Shown: positions 14,465 to 30,252, numbered from the stretch's first letter. The stretch: 64,000 bases of DNA from the human T2T-CHM13v2.0 reference genome, Homo sapiens (GCF_009914755.1 NC_060927.1); one strand, 5' to 3'. Notes: generated by a model from the sequence alone, not told the origin. Numbers and translations: made by a program.

Positions 14465-15481
14465 ATGGGGAAAAAACAGAACAGAAAAACTGGAAACTCT
14501 AAAAAGCAGAGTGCCTCTCCTCCTCCAAAGGAACGCAGCTCCTCACCAGCAACGGAACAAAGCTGGACGGAGAATGACTTTGACGAGCTGAGAGAAGAAG
14601 GCTTCAGACGATCAAATTACTCTGAGCTACGGGAAGACATTCAAACCAAAGGCAAAGAAGTTGAAAACTTTGAAAAAAATTTAGAAGAATGTATAACTAG
14701 AATAATCAAAACAGAGAAGTGCTTAAAGGAGCTGATGGAGCTGAAAACCAAGGCTCGAGAACTACGTGAAGAATGCAGAAGCCTCAGGAGCCGATGCGAT
14801 CAACTGGAAGAAAGGGTATCAGCGATGGAAGATGAAATGAATGAAATGAAGTGAGAAGGAAAGTTTAGAGAAAAAAGAATAAAAAGAAACGAGCAAAGCC
14901 TCCAAGAAATATGGGACTATGTGAAAAGACCAAATCTACGTCTGATTGGTGTACCTGAAAGTGATGGGGAGAATGGAACCAAGTTGGAAAACACTCTGCA
15001 GGATATTATCCAGGAGAATTTCCCCAATCTAGCAAGGAAGGCCAACATTCAGATTCAGGAAATACAGAGAATGCCACAGAGATACTCCTCGAGAAGAGCA
15101 ACTCCAAGACACATAATTGTCAGATTCACCAAAGTTGAAATGAAGGAAAAAATGTTAAGGGCAGCCAGAGAGAAAGGTCGGGTTACCCTCAAAGGGAAGC
15201 CCATCAGACTAACAGCGGATCTCTCGGCAGAAACCCTACAAGCCAGAAGAGAGTGGGGGCCAATATTCAACATTCTTAAAGAAAAGAATTTTCAACCCAG
15301 AATTTCATATCCTGCCAAACTAAGCTTCATGAGTGAAGGAGAAATAAAATCCTTTACAGACAAGCAAATGCTGAGAGATTTTGTCACCACCAGGCCTGCC
15401 CTAAAAGAGCTCCTGAAGGAACAGCTAAACATGGAAAGGAACAACCGGTACCAGCCACTGCAAAATCATGCCAAAATGTAA
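14465..15481 (+). pseudogene. L1 ORF1p with nonsense mutation R130*
   Basis: MGKKQNRK...EMNEMK, then TGA at 14852-14854 (CGA>TGA). The frame continues to ...QNHAKM stop at 15481. Confidence 0.95.
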
Positions 15482-15544
15482 AGACCATCGAGACTAGGAA
15501 GAAACTGCATCAACTAACGAGCAAAATAACCAGCTAACATCATA

Positions 15545-25823: not shown

Positions 25824-28800
25824 CTTTTTTTTTTTTTAAGTTTCTTTTTTTTTTTTATTATACTTTAAGTTTTAGGGTGCATGTGCACATTGTGCAGGTT
25901 AGTTACATATGTATACATGTGCCATGCTGGTGCGCTGCACCCACTAACTCGTCATCTAGCATTAGGTATATCTCCCAATGCTACCCCTCCCCCTCCCCCC
26001 ACCCCACCACAGTCCCCAGAGTGTGATATTCCCCTTCCTGTGACCATGTGATCTCATTGTTCAATTCCCACCTATGAGTGAGAATATGCGGTGTTTGGTT
26101 TTTTGTTCTTGAGATAGTTTACTGAGAATGATGGTTTCCAGTTTCATCCATGTCCCTACAAAGGACATGAACTCATCATTTTTTATGGCTGCATAGTATT
26201 CCATGGTGTATATGTGCCACATTTTCTTAATCCAGTCTATCATTGTTGGACATTTGGGTTGGTTCCAAGTCTTTGCTATTGTGAATAATGCTGCAATAAA
26301 CATACGTGTGCATGTGTCTTTATAGCAGCATGATTTATAGTCATTTGGGTATATACCCAGTAATGGGATGGCTGGGTCAAATGGTATTTCTAGTTCTAGA
26401 TCCCTGAGGAATCGCCACACTGACTTCCACAGTGGTTGAACTAGTTTACAGTCCCACCAACAGTGTAAAAGTGTTCCTATTTCTCCACATCCTCTCCAGC
26501 ACCTGTTGTTTCCTGACTTTTTAATGATTGCCATTCTAACTGGTGTGAGATGGTATCTCATAGTTGTTTTGATTTGCATTTCTCTGATGGCCAGTGATGA
26601 CGAGCATTTTTTCATGTATTTTTTGGCTGCATAAATGTCTTCTTTTGAGAAGTGTCTGTTCATGTCCTTCGCCCACTTTTTGATGGGGTTGTTTGTTTTT
26701 TTCTTGTAAATTTGTTTGAGTTCATTGTAGATTCTGGATATTAGCCCTTTGTCAGATGAGTAGCTTGCGAAAATTTTCTCCCATTTTGTAGGTTGCCTGT
26801 TCACTCTGATGGTAGTTTCTTTTGCTGTGCAGAAGCTCTTTAGTTTAATTAGATCCCATTTGTCAATTTTGTCTTCTGTTGCCATTGCTTTTGGTGTTTT
26901 GGACATGAAGTCCTTGCCCACGCCTATGTCCTGAATGGTAATGCCTAGGTTTTCTTCTAGGGTTTTTATGGTTTTAGGTCTAACGCTTAAATCTTTAATC
27001 CATCTTGAATTGATTTTTGTATAAGGTGTAAGGAAGGGATCCAGTTTCAGCTTTCTACATATGGCTAGCCAGTTTTCCCAGCACCATTTATTAAATAGGG
27101 AATCCTTTCCCCATTGCTTGTTTTTCTCAGGTTTGTCAAAGATCAGATAGTTGTAGGTATGCGGCATTATTTCTGAGGGCTCTGTTCTGTTCCATTGATC
27201 TATATCTCTGTTTTGATACCAGTACCATGCTGTTTTGGTTACTGTAGCCTTGTAGTATAGTTTGAGGTCAGGTAGTGTGATGCCTCCAGCTTTGTTCTTT
27301 TGGCTTAGGATTGACTTGGCGATGCGGGCTCTTTTTTGCTTCCATATGAACTTTAAAGTAGTTTTTTCCAATTCTGTGAAGAAAGTCATTGGTAGCTTGA
27401 TGGGGATGGCATTGAATCTGTAAATTACCTTGGGCAGTATGGCCATTTTCATGATATTGATTCTTCCTACCCATGAGCATGGAATGTTCTTCCATTTGTT
27501 TGTATCCTCTTTTATTTCCTTGAGCAGTGGTTTGTAGTTCTCCTTGAAGAGGTCCTTCACATCCCTTGTAAGTTGGATTCCTAGGTATTTTATTCTCTTT
27601 GAAGCAATTGTGAATGGGAGTTCACTCATGATTTGGCTCTCTGTTTGTCTGTTGTTGGTGTATAAGAATGCTTGTGATTTTTGTACATTGATTTTGTATC
27701 CTGAGACTTTGCTGAAGTTGCTTATCAGCTTAAGGAGATTTTGGGCTGAGACGATGGGGTTTTCTAGATAAACAATCATGTCGTCTGCAAACAGGGACAA
27801 TTTGACTTCCTCTTTTCCTAATTGAATACCCTTTATTTCCTTCTCCTGCCTAATTGCCCTGGCCAGAACTTCCAACACTATGTTGAATAGGAGCGGTGAG
27901 AGAGGGCATCCCTGTCTTGTGCCAGTTTTCAAAGGGAATGCTTCCAGTTTTTGCCCATTCAGTATGATATTGGCTGTGGGTTTGTCATAGATAGCTCTTA
28001 TTATTTTGAAATACGTCCCATCAATACCTAATTTATTGAGAGTTTTTAGCATGAAGGGTTGTTGAATTTTGTCAAAGGCTTTTTCTGCATCTATTGAGAT
28101 AATCATGTGGTTTTTGTCTTTGGCTCTGTTTATATGCTGGATTACATTTATTGATTTGCGTATATTGAACCAGCCTTGCATCCCAGGGATGAAGCCCACT
28201 TGATCATGGTGGATAAGCTTTTTGATGTGCTGCTGGATTCGGTTTGCCAGTATTTTATTGAGGATTTTTGCATCAATGTTCATCAAGGATATTGGTCTAA
28301 AATTCTCTTTTTTGGTTGTGTCTCTACCCGGCTTTGGTATCAGAATGATGCTGGCCTCATAAAATGAGTTAGGGAGGATTCCCTCTTTTTCTATTGATTG
28401 GAATAGTTTCAGAAGGAATGGTACCAGTTCCTCCTTGTACCTCTGGTAGAATTCGGCTGTGAATCCATCTGGTCCTGGACTCTTTTTGGTTGGTAAGCTA
28501 TTGATTATTGCCACAATTTCAGCTCCTGTTATTGGTCTATTCAGAGATTCAACTTCTTCCTGGTTTAGTCTTGGGAGAGTGTATGTGTCCAGGAATGTAT
28601 CCATTTCTTCTAGATTTTCTAGTTTATTTGCGTAGAGGTGTTTGTAGTATTCTCTGATGGTAGTTTGTATTTCTGTGGGATTGGTGGTGATATCCCCTTT
28701 ATCATTTTTTATTGTGTCTATTTGATTCTCCTCTCTTTTTTTCTTTATTAGTCTTGCTAGCGGTCTATCAATTTTGTTGATCCTTTCAAAAAACCAGCTC

Positions 28801-30252
28801 CTGGATTCATTGATTTTTTGAAGGGTTTTTTGTGTCTCTATTTCCTTCAGTTCTGCTCTGATTTTAGTTATTTCTTGCCTTCTGCTAGCTTTTGAATGTG
28901 TTTGCTCTTGCTTTTCTAGTTCTTTTAATTGTGATGTTAGGGTGTCAATTTTGGATCTTTCCTGCTTTCTCTTGTGGGCATTTAGTGCTATAAATTTCCC
29001 TCTACACACTGCTTTGAATGCGTCCCAGAGATTCTGGTATGTTGTGTCTTTGTTCTCGTTGGTTTCAAAGAACATCTTTATTTCTGCCTTCATTTCGTTA
29101 TGTACCCAGTAGTCATTCAGGAGCAGGTTGTTCAGTTTCCATGTAGTTGAGCGGCTTTGAGTGAGATTCTTAATCCTGAGTTCTAGTTTGATTGCACTGA
29201 GGTCTGAGAGATAGTTTGTTATAATTTCTGTTCTTTTACATTTGCTGAGGAGAGCTTTACTTCCAAGTATGTGGTCAACTTTGGAATAGGTGTGGTGTGG
29301 TGCTGAAAAAAATGTATATTCTATTGATTTGGGGTGGAGAGTTCTGTAGATGTCTATTAGGTCCTCTTGGTGCAGAGCTGAGTTCAATTCCTGGGTATCC
29401 TTGTTGACTTTCTGTCTCGTTGATCTGTCTAATGTTGACAGTGGGGTGTTAAAGTCTCCCATTATTAATGTGTGGGAGTCTAAGTCTCTTTGTAGGTCAC
29501 TCAGGACTTGCTTTATGAATCTGGGTGCTCCTGTATTGGGTGCATATATATTTCGGATAGTTAGCTCTTCTTGTTGAATTGATCCCTTTACCATTATGTA
29601 ATGGCCTTCTTTGTCTCTTTTGATCTTTGTTGGTTTAAAGTCTGTTTTATCAGAGACTAGGATTGCAACCCCTGCCTTTTTTTGTTTTCCATTTGCTTGG
29701 TAGATCTTCCTCCATCCTTTTATTTTGAGCCTATGTGTGTCTCTGCACGTGAGATGGGTTTCCTGAATACAGCACACTGATGGGTCTTGACTCTTTATCC
29801 AATTTGCCAGTCTGTGTCTTTTAATTGGAGCATTTAGTCCATTTACATTGAAAGTTAATATTGTTATGTGTGAATTTGATCCTGTCATTATGATGTTAGC
29901 TGGTTATTTTGCTCGTTAGTTGATGCAGTTTCTTCCTAGTCTCGATGGTCTTTACATTTTGGCATGATTTTGCAGTGGCTGGTACCGGTTGTTCCTTTCC
30001 ATGTTTAGCTGTTCCTTCAGGAGCTCTTTTAGGGCAGGCCTGGTGGTGACAAAATCTCTCAGCATTTGCTTGTCTGTAAAGGATTTTATTTCTCCTTCGC
30101 TTATGAAGCTTAGTTTGGCAGGATATGAAATTCTGGGTTGAAAATTCTTTTCTTTAAGAATGTTGAATATTGGCCCCCACTCTCTTCTGGCTTGTAGGGT
30201 TTCTGCCGAGAGATCCGCTGTTAGTCTGATGGGCTTCCCTTTGAGGGTAACC
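25824..30252 (-). mobile_element. 5'-truncated LINE-1, L1PA2-like (copy B), ~4.4 kb
   Basis: Poly-T at 25825-25856; 3'UTR GAG diagnostic; truncated within ORF1. TSD CCATCTTGGGTTAATA at 25808-25823 and 30251-30266, with a 2-nt microhomology at the 5' junction. Confidence 0.97.
26061..29888 (-). CDS. L1 ORF2p, open 1275 aa, endonuclease H230L
   Basis: Full ORF in the ORF track; FADD and CCHC intact; codon 230 is CTC (29199-29201 on the minus strand). Confidence 0.95.

What the first reader, a model, noticed from the sequence alone, without database searches (positions are those of the whole stretch)
15181..30252. Two independently inserted, inverted L1s share private mutations, including the endonuclease catalytic change H230L
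Seen: copy A (15181-~19575, +) and copy B (~25857-30252, -) are tail-to-tail ~4.4-kb arms around a ~6.2-kb spacer, with different TSDs and different tails. Both carry the same bases that differ from the L1PA2/L1HS consensus as I recall it (A/B positions): 15313/30120, ORF1 A>Q 15422-15424/30009-30011, ORF2 L13F 15583/29850, L112R 15879/29554, H230L 16233/29200, K387E 16703/28730, D403N 16751/28682, 16843/28590, 17107/28326, N850K 18094/27339, T1042S 18669/26764 and 19001/26432. They still differ at sites I recall as age-diagnostic (A: GMGK, TKAK, CSPS, EIII, GAACATCAC; B: GVGK, TEDK, CSSS, ETII, GAATATCAC). Established: H230 is catalytic in the L1 APE endonuclease and H230A blocks normal retrotransposition. 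Inference: an EN-dead source is unlikely to have made two TSD-bearing insertions, so the shared variants probably spread by repeated, patchy gene conversion between the arms. Alternative: an EN-dead L1 sublineage mobilised in trans.
Basis: partly seen in the sequence, partly recalled or inferred. Interest (0 to 1): 0.85.

Follow-up and report, generated by a model that had tools for sequence, protein, structure and literature searches.

The report
Gene conversion between two neighbouring L1s
Two separately inserted LINE-1 retrotransposons lying 6 kb apart in opposite orientation have copied stretches of sequence into each other, so both now carry the same rare mutations, one of which disables the endonuclease; this is a clean local example of a known process.

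Summary
Copy A is a full-length 6,053-bp L1 (13561-19613, +), not a 4.4-kb arm. Copy B is a 5'-truncated L1 (30252-25824, -). Each has its own target-site duplication and tail, so they are independent insertions.

At 9 of them, none of 28 other young L1 copies from the same genome carries the A/B base. The other 3 (16703, 16751, 16843) are ordinary lineage states.

H230L is confirmed against solved ORF2p sequences.

The arms are mosaic:
- They differ at 5 of 1,927 sites in 15181-17107, against 35 of 2,265 in the rest of ORF2.
- Trees join A and B in the first part (support 100/96).
- In the second part the data reject an A+B clade (AU p = 0.02).
- B's 3' part belongs to a different L1 lineage, while its 5' part carries A's lineage markers.

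No third L1 in the genome carries more than two of the nine rare variants, and one dinucleotide change occurs only in A and B.

Best reading (0.85): non-allelic gene conversion, mainly A into B over about 1.9 kb, plus a few short patches, at least one probably B into A. A sublineage lacking endonuclease activity is not needed. This is a known kind of event, and interest is low to moderate.

The parts
13549..13559 (+). 5' target-site duplication of copy A (AAGTACCAATT)
   Evidence: Identical 11-mer at 19614-19624.
13561..19613 (+). Copy A: full-length L1 (6,053 bp) with 5' UTR, ORF1, ORF2, 3' UTR and an A-rich tail, inserted into an older L1
   Evidence: Aligns from 13594/13599 to about 19600 with full-length L1 copies elsewhere. 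The 5' end reads GGGGAGGAGCCAAGATGG. Pfam gives RVT_1, Exo_endo_phos and Transposase_22.
14465..15481 (+). ORF1 of A, interrupted by a TGA at codon 130 (14852-14854, a C>T change in a CpG)
   Evidence: The same T is present in L031 and L044.
15545..19372 (+). ORF2 of A, open for 1,275 codons; codon 230 is CTC (Leu) at 16232-16234
15181..17107 (+). Main converted tract, A side. It is homogenised with B 30252-28326. The first shared rare state is at 15313, the last at 17107, and the next A/B difference is at 17273.
   Evidence: 5 differences in 1,927 sites, against a mean of 31.4 between A and 28 other copies. A+B clade supported 100/96. Seven pair-exclusive states.
19614..19624 (+). 3' target-site duplication of copy A
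19625..25809 (.). Spacer of 6,185 bp: old L1 fragments plus a snoU13 copy at 20578-20682 (-)
   Evidence: Old L1 matches of 74-89%; Rfam RF01210 at 107.8 bits.
25810..25823 (-). Target-site duplication of copy B on its 3' side (TATTAACCCAAGAT when read on the - strand)
25824..30252 (-). Copy B: 5'-truncated L1 (4,429 bp including the tail). It starts inside ORF1 and is inserted into an older L1 of the same orientation.
26061..29888 (-). ORF2 of B, open for 1,275 codons; codon 230 is CTC (Leu) at 29201-29199
   Evidence: There are 22 amino-acid differences from A's ORF2; 19 of them lie at or beyond residue 577.
28326..30252 (-). Main converted tract, B side. It carries A-lineage states at the positions matching A 15457, 15528, 15602, 15630, 15865, 16166, 16843 and 16936.
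30253..30266 (-). Target-site duplication of copy B on its 5' side
16703..16703 (+). K387E base G (B position 28730): a marker of B's own lineage now present in A, so a candidate B-into-A patch
   Evidence: G occurs in exactly the 4 copies (L016, L018, L026, L034) that also share B's 3' markers 19390T and 19448G. A's relatives all have A at this site.
17581..17581 (+). Isolated A-lineage state shared with B (27852), bounded by A/B differences at 17353 and 17650
18094..19001 (+). Three short shared patches inside the otherwise unconverted 3' part: 18094G; 18648A-18669G; 18880C-19001C. The B positions are 27339, 26785-26764 and 26553-26432. Each patch is bounded within about 250 bp by A/B differences.

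Best explanation
A (full-length, + strand) and B (5'-truncated, - strand) entered this region as separate retrotransposition events from two different young L1 lineages, ending tail to tail 6.2 kb apart. Later, homologous repair between the inverted copies (non-allelic gene conversion without crossover) overwrote B's outer 1.9-2.1 kb with A's sequence. That tract is A 15181/15313 to 17107/17272.

The copied stretch carried whatever rare changes A had by then. These include the ORF1 GC>CA change at 15422-15423 and the ORF2 changes L13F, L112R and H230L.

Further short exchanges account for the rest:
- a shared A-lineage base at 17581;
- shared rare bases at 18094, 18669 and 19001;
- a B-lineage base (16703G, K387E) now in A, which needs a transfer in the opposite direction.

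On this reading H230L is most simply a neutral decay mutation in a dead insertion that was then copied sideways. Neither copy needs a source lacking endonuclease activity.

Shown: independent insertion, the mosaic structure, the lineage assignments, and the uniqueness of the joint haplotype.
Inferred: the direction of transfer, the number of events, and the timing. Five differences in 1,927 bp suggest roughly 1-3 million years at 0.5-1 x 10^-9 per site per year (rates recalled, not from a call).
For: (1) Independent insertions. The TSDs and tails differ, and homology ends exactly at B's truncation point and at the tails.

(2) Uneven divergence. A and B differ at 5/1,927 sites (0.26%) in 15181-17107, 35/2,265 (1.55%) in 17108-19372 and 13/198 in the 3' UTR. 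A against 28 other copies averages 31.4, 36.0 and 11.8 differences in the same windows. Fisher tests against pooled A-background and B-background counts give p = 7.7e-6 and 2.0e-7. The plain 5' versus 3' test gives p = 6.7e-8.

(3) Tree conflict. In 15181-17107 A+B is a clade at 100/96, inside A's lineage. In 17108-19372 A sits with L031 (83/80) in a starred set of 5 rows, and B lies across a 99/95 branch. Forcing A+B together costs 33.3 log-likelihood units, AU p = 0.020.

(4) Lineage markers. A matches L031, L044, L045 and L047 along its whole length, including the 1.6 kb that has no counterpart in B. B's 3' part carries markers of L016, L018, L026 and L034 (19390T, 19448G). B's 5' part carries 8 A-lineage states and lacks its own lineage's 16843T, and also 15962T and 16120G.

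(5) The joint haplotype is unique.
- The 15422-15423 23-mer occurs only in A and B.
- The other eight variants occur in 11-284 other copies each. In the lists shown, no other element holds more than two of them.
- 415 of 435 pairs among 30 copies share no exclusive state in the 5' part, while A and B share 7.

(6) No crossover. Each element still has its own TSD on both sides, and A is a single lineage throughout.

(7) The process is established for neighbouring repeats. Passages in PMC8230782 report Alu-Alu conversion acting within about 10 kb and falling with distance. Passages in a 2026 preprint (PMC13192797) report 35 recombinants (22 high-confidence, 13 probable) among 2,267 full-length young L1s.
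Against: - The 3' part needs three separate very short patches, each carrying a rare base. That is an untidy history and its direction cannot be read.
- 16703G in A could be a parallel A>G transition rather than a transfer from B.
- After conversion A gained 1 private change in the tract and B gained 3-4. This is uneven, though the counts are small.
- Another L1 of A's lineage 1.6 Mb away (L045) has both 15583C and H230L, and L044, 0.45 Mb away, has 15583C and 18094G. Some 'A-private' changes may therefore pre-date A's insertion or reflect wider exchange.
- An unlinked pair (L025/L030) also shows uneven 5'/3' distances, 1 against 13. Unevenness alone is therefore not proof.
- The comparison set is only 34 of 10,411 candidates, chosen by the search tool.
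- No outgroup locus, second human assembly or read data could be examined.
Confidence: 0.85

Rival explanations
1. B was born chimeric. During its reverse transcription the enzyme started on an RNA of B's lineage and switched template, near the position matching A 17200-17600, to an RNA transcribed from A or from A's source. B's 5' part would then have been A-like from the start.
For: There is one main breakpoint, with A-type sequence on the 5' side, as template switching would give. B's private changes in the 5' tract (3-4 in 1,927 bp) are not significantly fewer than in its 3' ORF2 part (8 in 2,265 bp).
Against: - It does not explain the three shared rare bases inside B's 3' part, the isolated shared base at 17581, or the B-lineage base 16703G in A.
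- It needs the second RNA to come from the element that happens to lie 6 kb from the insertion site.
- If the RNA came from A's source rather than from A, the seven rare bases should recur in other offspring, and they do not.
Confidence: 0.05
2. A and B both descend from one source L1 that already carried H230L and the other shared changes and was mobilised in trans by another element's ORF2p.
For: - H230L plus 15583C also occur together in L045, an L1 of A's lineage 1.6 Mb away. The chance expectation is about 24 x 11 / 7,789 = 0.03.
- Defective L1s can evidently be copied. L025 and L030, on different chromosomes with unrelated 3' flanks, share 23 exclusive changes including a non-CpG nonsense codon at ORF2 position 159.
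Against: - B's 3' 2.3 kb belongs to another lineage, and an A+B clade is rejected there.
- No third copy has more than 2 of the 9 variants, and the CA dinucleotide is unique to A and B.
- True siblings (L025/L030) share exclusive changes along their whole length, unlike A and B.
- Two offspring of one source landing 6 kb apart in a 3.1-Gb genome is very improbable.
- L045 shares only those two of A's rare states, a level reached by unrelated pairs through parallel mutation, at 1-3 per pair.
Confidence: 0.04
3. Assembly or polishing artefact: reads from one arm were used to correct the other, creating false identity.
For: The arms are 98.6% alike and 6 kb apart, a layout in which mis-assigned reads are conceivable.
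Against: - The homogenised tract still contains 5 arm-specific differences.
- The 3' part keeps 48 differences at similar identity.
- The tract ends are marked by lineage sites, not by read-length-like blocks.
- Each arm is only 4.4-6 kb with unique flanks, shorter than the long reads such an assembly rests on (recalled, not tested).
Confidence: 0.03
4. Inverted segmental duplication (a palindrome), or a single twin-primed insertion, rather than two insertions.
For: Inverted arms with 99% identity over 4.26 kb without gaps.
Against: - Homology does not extend into either flank.
- A continues 1.6 kb further 5' than B.
- Each arm has its own perfect TSD pair and its own tail.
- The 6.2-kb spacer is old, unrelated repeat sequence.
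Confidence: 0.01

Closest known systems
Proximity-dependent non-allelic gene conversion between interspersed repeats (neighbouring Alu elements)
   Same: Independent insertions of one repeat family a few kb apart exchange sequence non-reciprocally, so non-diagnostic mutations become shared. The reported range is about 10 kb and falls with distance (passages of PMC8230782). Here the arms are 6.2 kb apart.
   Different: The elements here are L1s, with a tract of about 1.9 kb. That is longer than a whole Alu, so the breakpoint, the patchiness and the direction can all be read. The partners are in inverted orientation. The exchange carried an amino-acid change at a catalytic residue.
Recombinant or mosaic young L1 elements found in pangenome screens
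   Same: Full-length L1HS/L1PA2/L1PA3 copies whose parts resolve to different donor groups. Of 2,267 screened, 48 were nominated and 22 high-confidence plus 13 probable were removed (methods passages of preprint PMC13192797).
   Different: That screen covers full-length elements and donor groups, not an identified donor next door. B is truncated and would not be in it. Its supplementary files could not be opened, so I cannot say whether A is listed there.
Arm-to-arm gene conversion in palindromes and inverted segmental duplications
   Same: Inverted repeats with a short spacer are kept alike by intrachromosomal conversion without inverting the spacer (recalled knowledge, not from a call).
   Different: The arms here did not arise by duplication. 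They are two separate insertions, so the pre-conversion state can be inferred from each element's lineage.
L1 sequences used as donors to repair breaks in other L1s
   Same: A break in one L1 is repaired by conversion from another L1. This is cited in PMC1920257, which also proposes an intrachromosomal conversion within an L1 locus (passages).
   Different: Those cases are cell-culture events or single short segments. Here the product is a fixed germline mosaic with an identifiable neighbouring donor.
Defective L1s mobilised in trans
   Same: This would also produce several copies sharing an inactivating mutation. L025/L030 in this genome look like that pattern.
   Different: A and B fail the expectations for it. 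They are not congruent along their length, and no further copies carry the haplotype.

Membership tests
LINE-1 insertion made by target-primed reverse transcription (both copies) | Perfect target-site duplication flanking the element | tested here: met
   A has 11 bp at 13549-13559 and 19614-19624. B has 14 bp at 30253-30266 and 25810-25823.
LINE-1 insertion made by target-primed reverse transcription (both copies) | A-rich 3' tail; 5' end full-length or truncated | tested here: met
   Both have A-rich tails, of different make-up. A starts at the canonical 5' end and B is truncated inside ORF1.
LINE-1 insertion made by target-primed reverse transcription (both copies) | ORF1 and ORF2 with L1 domains | tested here: met
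   RVT_1 at 1.4e-47 and 2.5e-47. Exo_endo_phos at 5e-21 and 1.5e-19. Transposase_22 at 3e-63. Full-length match to solved ORF2p 8uw3.
LINE-1 insertion made by target-primed reverse transcription (both copies) | Nick site resembling TTTT/AA | tested here: inconclusive
   Read from the flanks, the sites are T/A-rich but do not match the consensus as I recall it. The tail blurs the exact TSD start.
Active L1 endonuclease | Histidine at ORF2p residue 230 | tested here: not met
   Leu (CTC) in both copies, against His in 8uw3. H230 is described as absolutely critical, and none of 134 intact full-length loci is mutated there (passages of PMC4837594). No assay of H230L itself was found.
Non-allelic gene conversion between neighbouring repeats | The two copies have independent origins | tested here: met
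   Separate TSDs, tails and truncation points; the flanks are unrelated.
Non-allelic gene conversion between neighbouring repeats | Relationships change along the sequence (mosaic acceptor) | tested here: met
   Trees for the two parts conflict, AU p = 0.020. Lineage markers switch between 17107 and 17662.
Non-allelic gene conversion between neighbouring repeats | Rare variants are shared only by the two neighbours | tested here: met
   The CA dinucleotide is unique to A and B in 3.1 Gb. A and B share 7 exclusive states in the 5' part and 3 in the 3' part, while 415 and 420 of 435 pairs respectively share none.
Non-allelic gene conversion between neighbouring repeats | Non-reciprocal, without crossover | tested here: met
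   Both TSD pairs are intact and A is one lineage throughout. This is inferred from structure.
Non-allelic gene conversion between neighbouring repeats | The unconverted state is seen in an outgroup or in another haplotype | not testable with these tools
   Only this one human assembly is held.
Sublineage of defective L1 mobilised in trans | The same haplotype occurs in several unlinked copies | tested here: not met
   No other element has more than 2 of the 9 variants in the lists shown. The lists for 15313T, 18094G and 19001C were cut at 100 rows.
Sublineage of defective L1 mobilised in trans | Copies are congruent over their whole shared length | tested here: not met
   An A+B clade is rejected in 17108-19372. 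Compare L025/L030, which share 23 exclusive changes spread over 6 kb.
Inverted segmental duplication or twin-primed single insertion | One TSD pair around the whole structure, or homology running into the flanks | tested here: not met

The most novel reading that the evidence does not exclude
Rare L1 variants, including the endonuclease-killing H230L, move between L1 copies by ectopic conversion not only across 6 kb but across a chromosomal neighbourhood of up to a megabase or more. L1s in a region would then evolve partly in concert, and a 'dead' allele could multiply without retrotransposition.

Hints:
- Two of the four other elements genome-wide that hold two of A's rare variants lie 0.45 and 1.6 Mb from A. 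One of them carries H230L.
- Carriers of five rare variants form 13 pairs within 2 Mb, where about 1 is expected if they were spread evenly.
- A second inverted pair on contig 7, 23 kb apart, shares 4 exclusive states in 1.1 kb.
Probability: 0.12. Interest if true: 0.55.

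Novelty: new member of a known kind. 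Interest (0 to 1): 0.3.

Why it matters
The locus shows how shared 'private' mutations in neighbouring repeats can mimic common descent. Read naively, it would suggest that an L1 without a working endonuclease had retrotransposed twice. In fact the change was most likely copied sideways after insertion.

This matters in practice for three things:
- dating L1 insertions from their divergence;
- assigning subfamilies;
- reconstructing source-offspring relationships from shared variants.

Because both partners can be assigned to lineages, the locus also gives a readable example of tract length (about 1.9 kb), patchiness and direction for conversion between inverted repeats 6 kb apart. It predicts a clear result in ape orthologues. 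The mechanism itself is not new.

Tried and rejected
- Segmental duplication and twin priming are rejected by the two separate TSD pairs and the unrelated flanks.
- Chance sharing is rejected by the genome-wide counts and the pair-exclusive tally.
- A maximum chi-square scan on raw A/B differences placed its breakpoint at 19291, because the 3' UTR is much more variable in all copies. It therefore does not locate the conversion boundary. I used comparisons scaled to background copies instead.
- I asked whether the two open ORF2 frames are remarkable. They are not in this sample: 19 of the 28 comparison copies also have an open ORF2. That set is biased towards well-preserved copies.
- I looked for long identical runs between A and L045 or L044 around the variants they share. 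The runs around 16233 (195 bp) and 15583 (150 bp) are among L045's six longest but are not outliers, so nothing can be concluded.
Only six elements were fetched. The relationships of the remaining carriers rest on k-mer positions alone.
- A combined two-k-mer pattern for 18669G plus 19001C was not accepted by the tool. Co-occurrence of these two is therefore checked only up to contig 5, where the 19001C list was cut.

Full report
**What is there**

The window holds two young L1 elements in convergent (tail-to-tail) orientation.

Copy A is a full-length element on the + strand, at 13561-19613 (6,053 bp).
- Its 5' end reads GGGGAGGAGCCAAGATGG.
- It aligns almost end to end with full-length L1s elsewhere in the genome.
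- It is flanked by a perfect 11-bp duplication, AAGTACCAATT, at 13549-13559 and 19614-19624.
- It sits inside an older L1.

Copy B lies on the - strand, at 30252-25824.
- It is truncated inside ORF1.
- It has a different tail and is flanked by a perfect 14-bp duplication, TATTAACCCAAGAT, at 30253-30266 and 25810-25823.
- It is inserted in another old L1.

The homology between the two copies runs from 15181 to 19600 in A and from 30252 to 25832 in B. Identity is 98.64% over 4,423 columns, with 55 mismatches, and it stops at B's truncation point and at the tails.

The spacer is 6,185 bp of old L1 fragments plus a snoU13 copy.

Pfam finds the expected L1 domains in both ORF2s and in A's ORF1. Both ORF2s are open for 1,275 codons. 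A's ORF1 has a TGA at codon 130.

**Checking the shared variants against real copies**

I used 28 other young L1 copies from the same genome instead. They were the best-scoring of the 34 candidates that the search scored, out of 10,411.

- A and B agree with each other and differ from the majority of the 28 at 24 substitution columns between 15313 and 19001.
- At nine positions none of the 28 has the A/B base: 15313, 15422 (with 15423), 15583, 15879, 16233, 17107, 18094, 18669 and 19001.
- The other three are ordinary lineage states: 16703G in 4 of 28, 16751A in 2 of 28 and 16843G in 2 of 28.

Alignment to solved ORF2p (8uw3, 1,275 residues) confirms F13, R112, L230 (within SDL, against SDH), E387, N403 and K850. 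Passages of PMC4837594 call H230 'absolutely critical' for endonuclease function. They also report that none of 134 full-length loci with intact ORFs is mutated there.

**How rare the variants are genome-wide**

Exact 21- or 23-mers carrying each variant were counted in the 3.1-Gb assembly. The counts include A and B.

| Variant | Copies |
|---|---|
| 15313T | 106 |
| 15422-3 CA | 2 (only A and B) |
| 15583C | 26 |
| 15879G | 20 |
| 16233T (H230L) | 13 |
| 17107T | 14 |
| 18094G | 145 |
| 18669G | 24 |
| 19001C | 286 |

The H230 context with any base at the variable position occurs 7,789 times, so H230L is present in about 0.17% of copies.

Of the 11 other H230L copies, nine are 81-92% identical to A, so they are much older elements. 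Two are young: L001 at 96.1% and L004/L045 at 97.8%.

I compared positions across the lists. Only four other elements carry two of the nine variants, and none carries three:
- chr3:191.84 Mb (15583C + 16233T);
- chr3:190.68 Mb (15583C + 18094G);
- chr3:12.03 Mb (17107T + 18094G);
- chr2:96.89 Mb with its nearby duplicate (15313T + 15879G).

The lists for 15313T, 18094G and 19001C were cut at 100 rows, so this check is incomplete for those three variants.

**The arms are mosaic**

Differences between A and B by region:

| Region | A vs B | A vs 28 other copies (mean) |
|---|---|---|
| 15181-17107 | 5 of 1,927 sites | 31.4 |
| 17108-19372 | 35 of 2,265 | 36.0 |
| 3' UTR | 13 of 198 | 11.8 |

B is therefore no closer to A than a random young L1 in the 3' part, but six times closer in the 5' part. 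Fisher tests against the pooled A and B backgrounds give p = 7.7e-6 and 2.0e-7.

In the 3' part A ranks among the most distant copies from B: 48 differences, against 26 for L026.

Maximum-likelihood trees agree.
- In 15181-17107, A and B form a clade with support 100/96, inside A's lineage.
- In 17108-19372, A groups with L031 (83/80) in a well-supported set with L044, L045 and L047. B lies across a branch with support 99/95.
- Forcing A and B together in that part costs 33.3 log-likelihood units (AU p = 0.020).

**Which arm was overwritten**

A shares rare states with L031, L044, L045 and L047 along its whole length. This includes the 1.6 kb upstream of 15181 that has no counterpart in B.

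B's 3' part carries 19390T and 19448G, found in exactly four comparison copies: L016, L018, L026 and L034. Those four copies have 16703G and 16843T in the 5' part, and three of them also have 15962T and 16120G.

B has kept only 16703G of these. At 15457, 15528, 15602, 15630, 15865, 16166, 16843 and 16936 it has A's lineage states instead.

So B is the mosaic and A was the donor. The tract begins no later than 15313, probably at the end of the homology, and reaches at least 17107. The next A/B difference is at 17273.

The rare bases at 15313, 15422-3, 15583, 15879, 16233 and 17107 are interleaved with A's lineage markers. They most simply travelled with them.

**Patches**

The exchange was not one clean block.
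- 16703G is a marker of B's lineage and is now in A, whose relatives all have A at that site. This points to a second event with A as recipient, unless it is a parallel transition.
- 17581T, an A-lineage state, is shared between differences at 17353 and 17650.
- In the 3' part, 18094G, 18669G (with 18648A) and 19001C (with 18880C) are shared, each inside a window of at most about 250 bp bounded by differences.
- Using the genome-wide counts over 7,789 as upper-bound frequencies, the chance that B carries all three of these by coincidence is about 2e-6. This is my own arithmetic.
- Among 435 pairs of 30 copies, only three pairs share three or more exclusive states in that part, and A/B is one of them.

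**No crossover**

A crossover between inverted repeats would invert the spacer, swap the inner halves of the arms and separate each element from its inner TSD. Both TSD pairs are intact and A is one lineage throughout. The events were therefore non-reciprocal, or the number of crossovers was even.

**What this means for H230L**

In the tract A has eight rare bases, and seven of them are shared with B. This fits a late conversion that copied mutations A had already accumulated.

The simplest history is that H230L arose by neutral decay in A and was copied into B. Neither insertion then needs a source without endonuclease activity.

I estimate the main event at roughly 1-3 million years ago, from 5 differences in 1,927 bp. 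This is an inference using recalled mutation rates.

**A loose end**

L045, a decayed full-length L1 of A's lineage 1.6 Mb away, has both 15583C and 16233T. L044, 0.45 Mb away, has 15583C and 18094G.
- Under independence, the 15583C + 16233T coincidence is expected about 0.03 times (24 x 11 / 7,789).
- Unrelated pairs in my alignment commonly share 1-3 exclusive states through parallel mutation.
- L044-L047 were picked because they share two variants.
- L045 shares none of A's 20 rare bases upstream of 15181.
- L031 shares about 12 rare states with A that L045 lacks.

I cannot decide between coincidence, descent of H230L from A's source, and wider ectopic exchange.

**Controls and side findings**

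L025 (contig 17) and L030 (contig 1) show what real siblings look like.
- They share 23 exclusive changes spread over the whole 6 kb.
- They are 99.56% identical.
- Their 3' flanks are unrelated.
- They share a non-CpG nonsense codon at ORF2 position 159.

Carriers of five rare variants form 13 pairs within 2 Mb, against about 1 expected if evenly spread. Segmental duplications were not excluded.

One such pair on contig 7 is a full-length L1 and a 1.1-kb fragment with an inverted 3' piece, 23 kb apart in opposite orientation with unrelated flanks. The two share four exclusive states plus 18669G in 1,120 bp and are each other's nearest relatives.

**Comparison with what is known**

- Passages of PMC8230782 summarise genome-wide evidence that Alu elements convert their neighbours within about 10 kb, with frequency falling with distance. 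They also note that most work on conversion between transposable elements concerns Alus.
- Methods passages of preprint PMC13192797 report 35 recombinants among 2,267 full-length young L1s.
- PMC1920257 cites L1-to-L1 conversion in break repair and proposes an intrachromosomal conversion within an L1 locus (passages).

My four literature searches turned up no description of this locus. They were not designed to find one, so I make no claim that it is unpublished.

**Verdict**

The event is a well-resolved instance of a known process, and the endonuclease change is a passenger. Interest 0.3.

Noticed in passing
L025 (G000:C17:33833335-33840733) and L030 (G000:C1:65434782-65442183): Two L1 copies on different chromosomes are 99.56% identical and share 23 exclusive changes along their whole length. 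These include a non-CpG nonsense codon (CAG>TAG) at ORF2 codon 159. Their 3' flanks do not align. This looks like one ORF2-defective source copied at least twice.
   Followed up: partly
L016 (G000:C2:43664348-43671749) and L018 (G000:C10:78957608-78965009): A second unlinked pair, 99.4% identical, with the first ORF2 stop at codon 963 in both and no alignment in the flank. I did not check whether the stop is a CpG change.
   Followed up: no
L048 (G000:C7:33661351-33667654) and L049 (G000:C7:33684364-33690667): A full-length L1 and a 1.1-kb L1 fragment with an inverted 3' piece lie 23 kb apart in opposite orientation. They share four exclusive states plus 18669G in 1,120 bp, are each other's nearest relatives, and have unrelated flanks. 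This may be a second case of exchange between neighbours.
   Followed up: partly
Genome-wide lists: Carriers of five rare L1 variants are clumped: 13 pairs within 2 Mb, against about 1 expected if evenly spread. Clusters lie on contig 16 near 68.8-68.9 Mb, contig 23 near 116.1-116.3 Mb and contig 2 near 209.6 Mb. Segmental duplication was not excluded.
   Followed up: partly
L045 (G000:C3:191833549-191839852) and L044 (G000:C3:190680025-190686328): Two decayed full-length L1s of A's lineage, 1.6 and 0.45 Mb from A, each carry two of A's rare variants (15583C + H230L, and 15583C + 18094G). This is unexplained.
   Followed up: partly
window 14852-14854: The premature stop in A's ORF1 (codon 130, CGA>TGA in a CpG) is also present in L031 and L044. 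It is probably recurrent CpG decay, but shared descent is not excluded.
   Followed up: no
window 20578-20682 (-): A full-length match to Rfam snoU13 (RF01210, 107.8 bits, model positions 1-104 of 104) lies in the spacer between the two L1s. It agrees with the RefSeq row supplied with the finding.
   Followed up: partly
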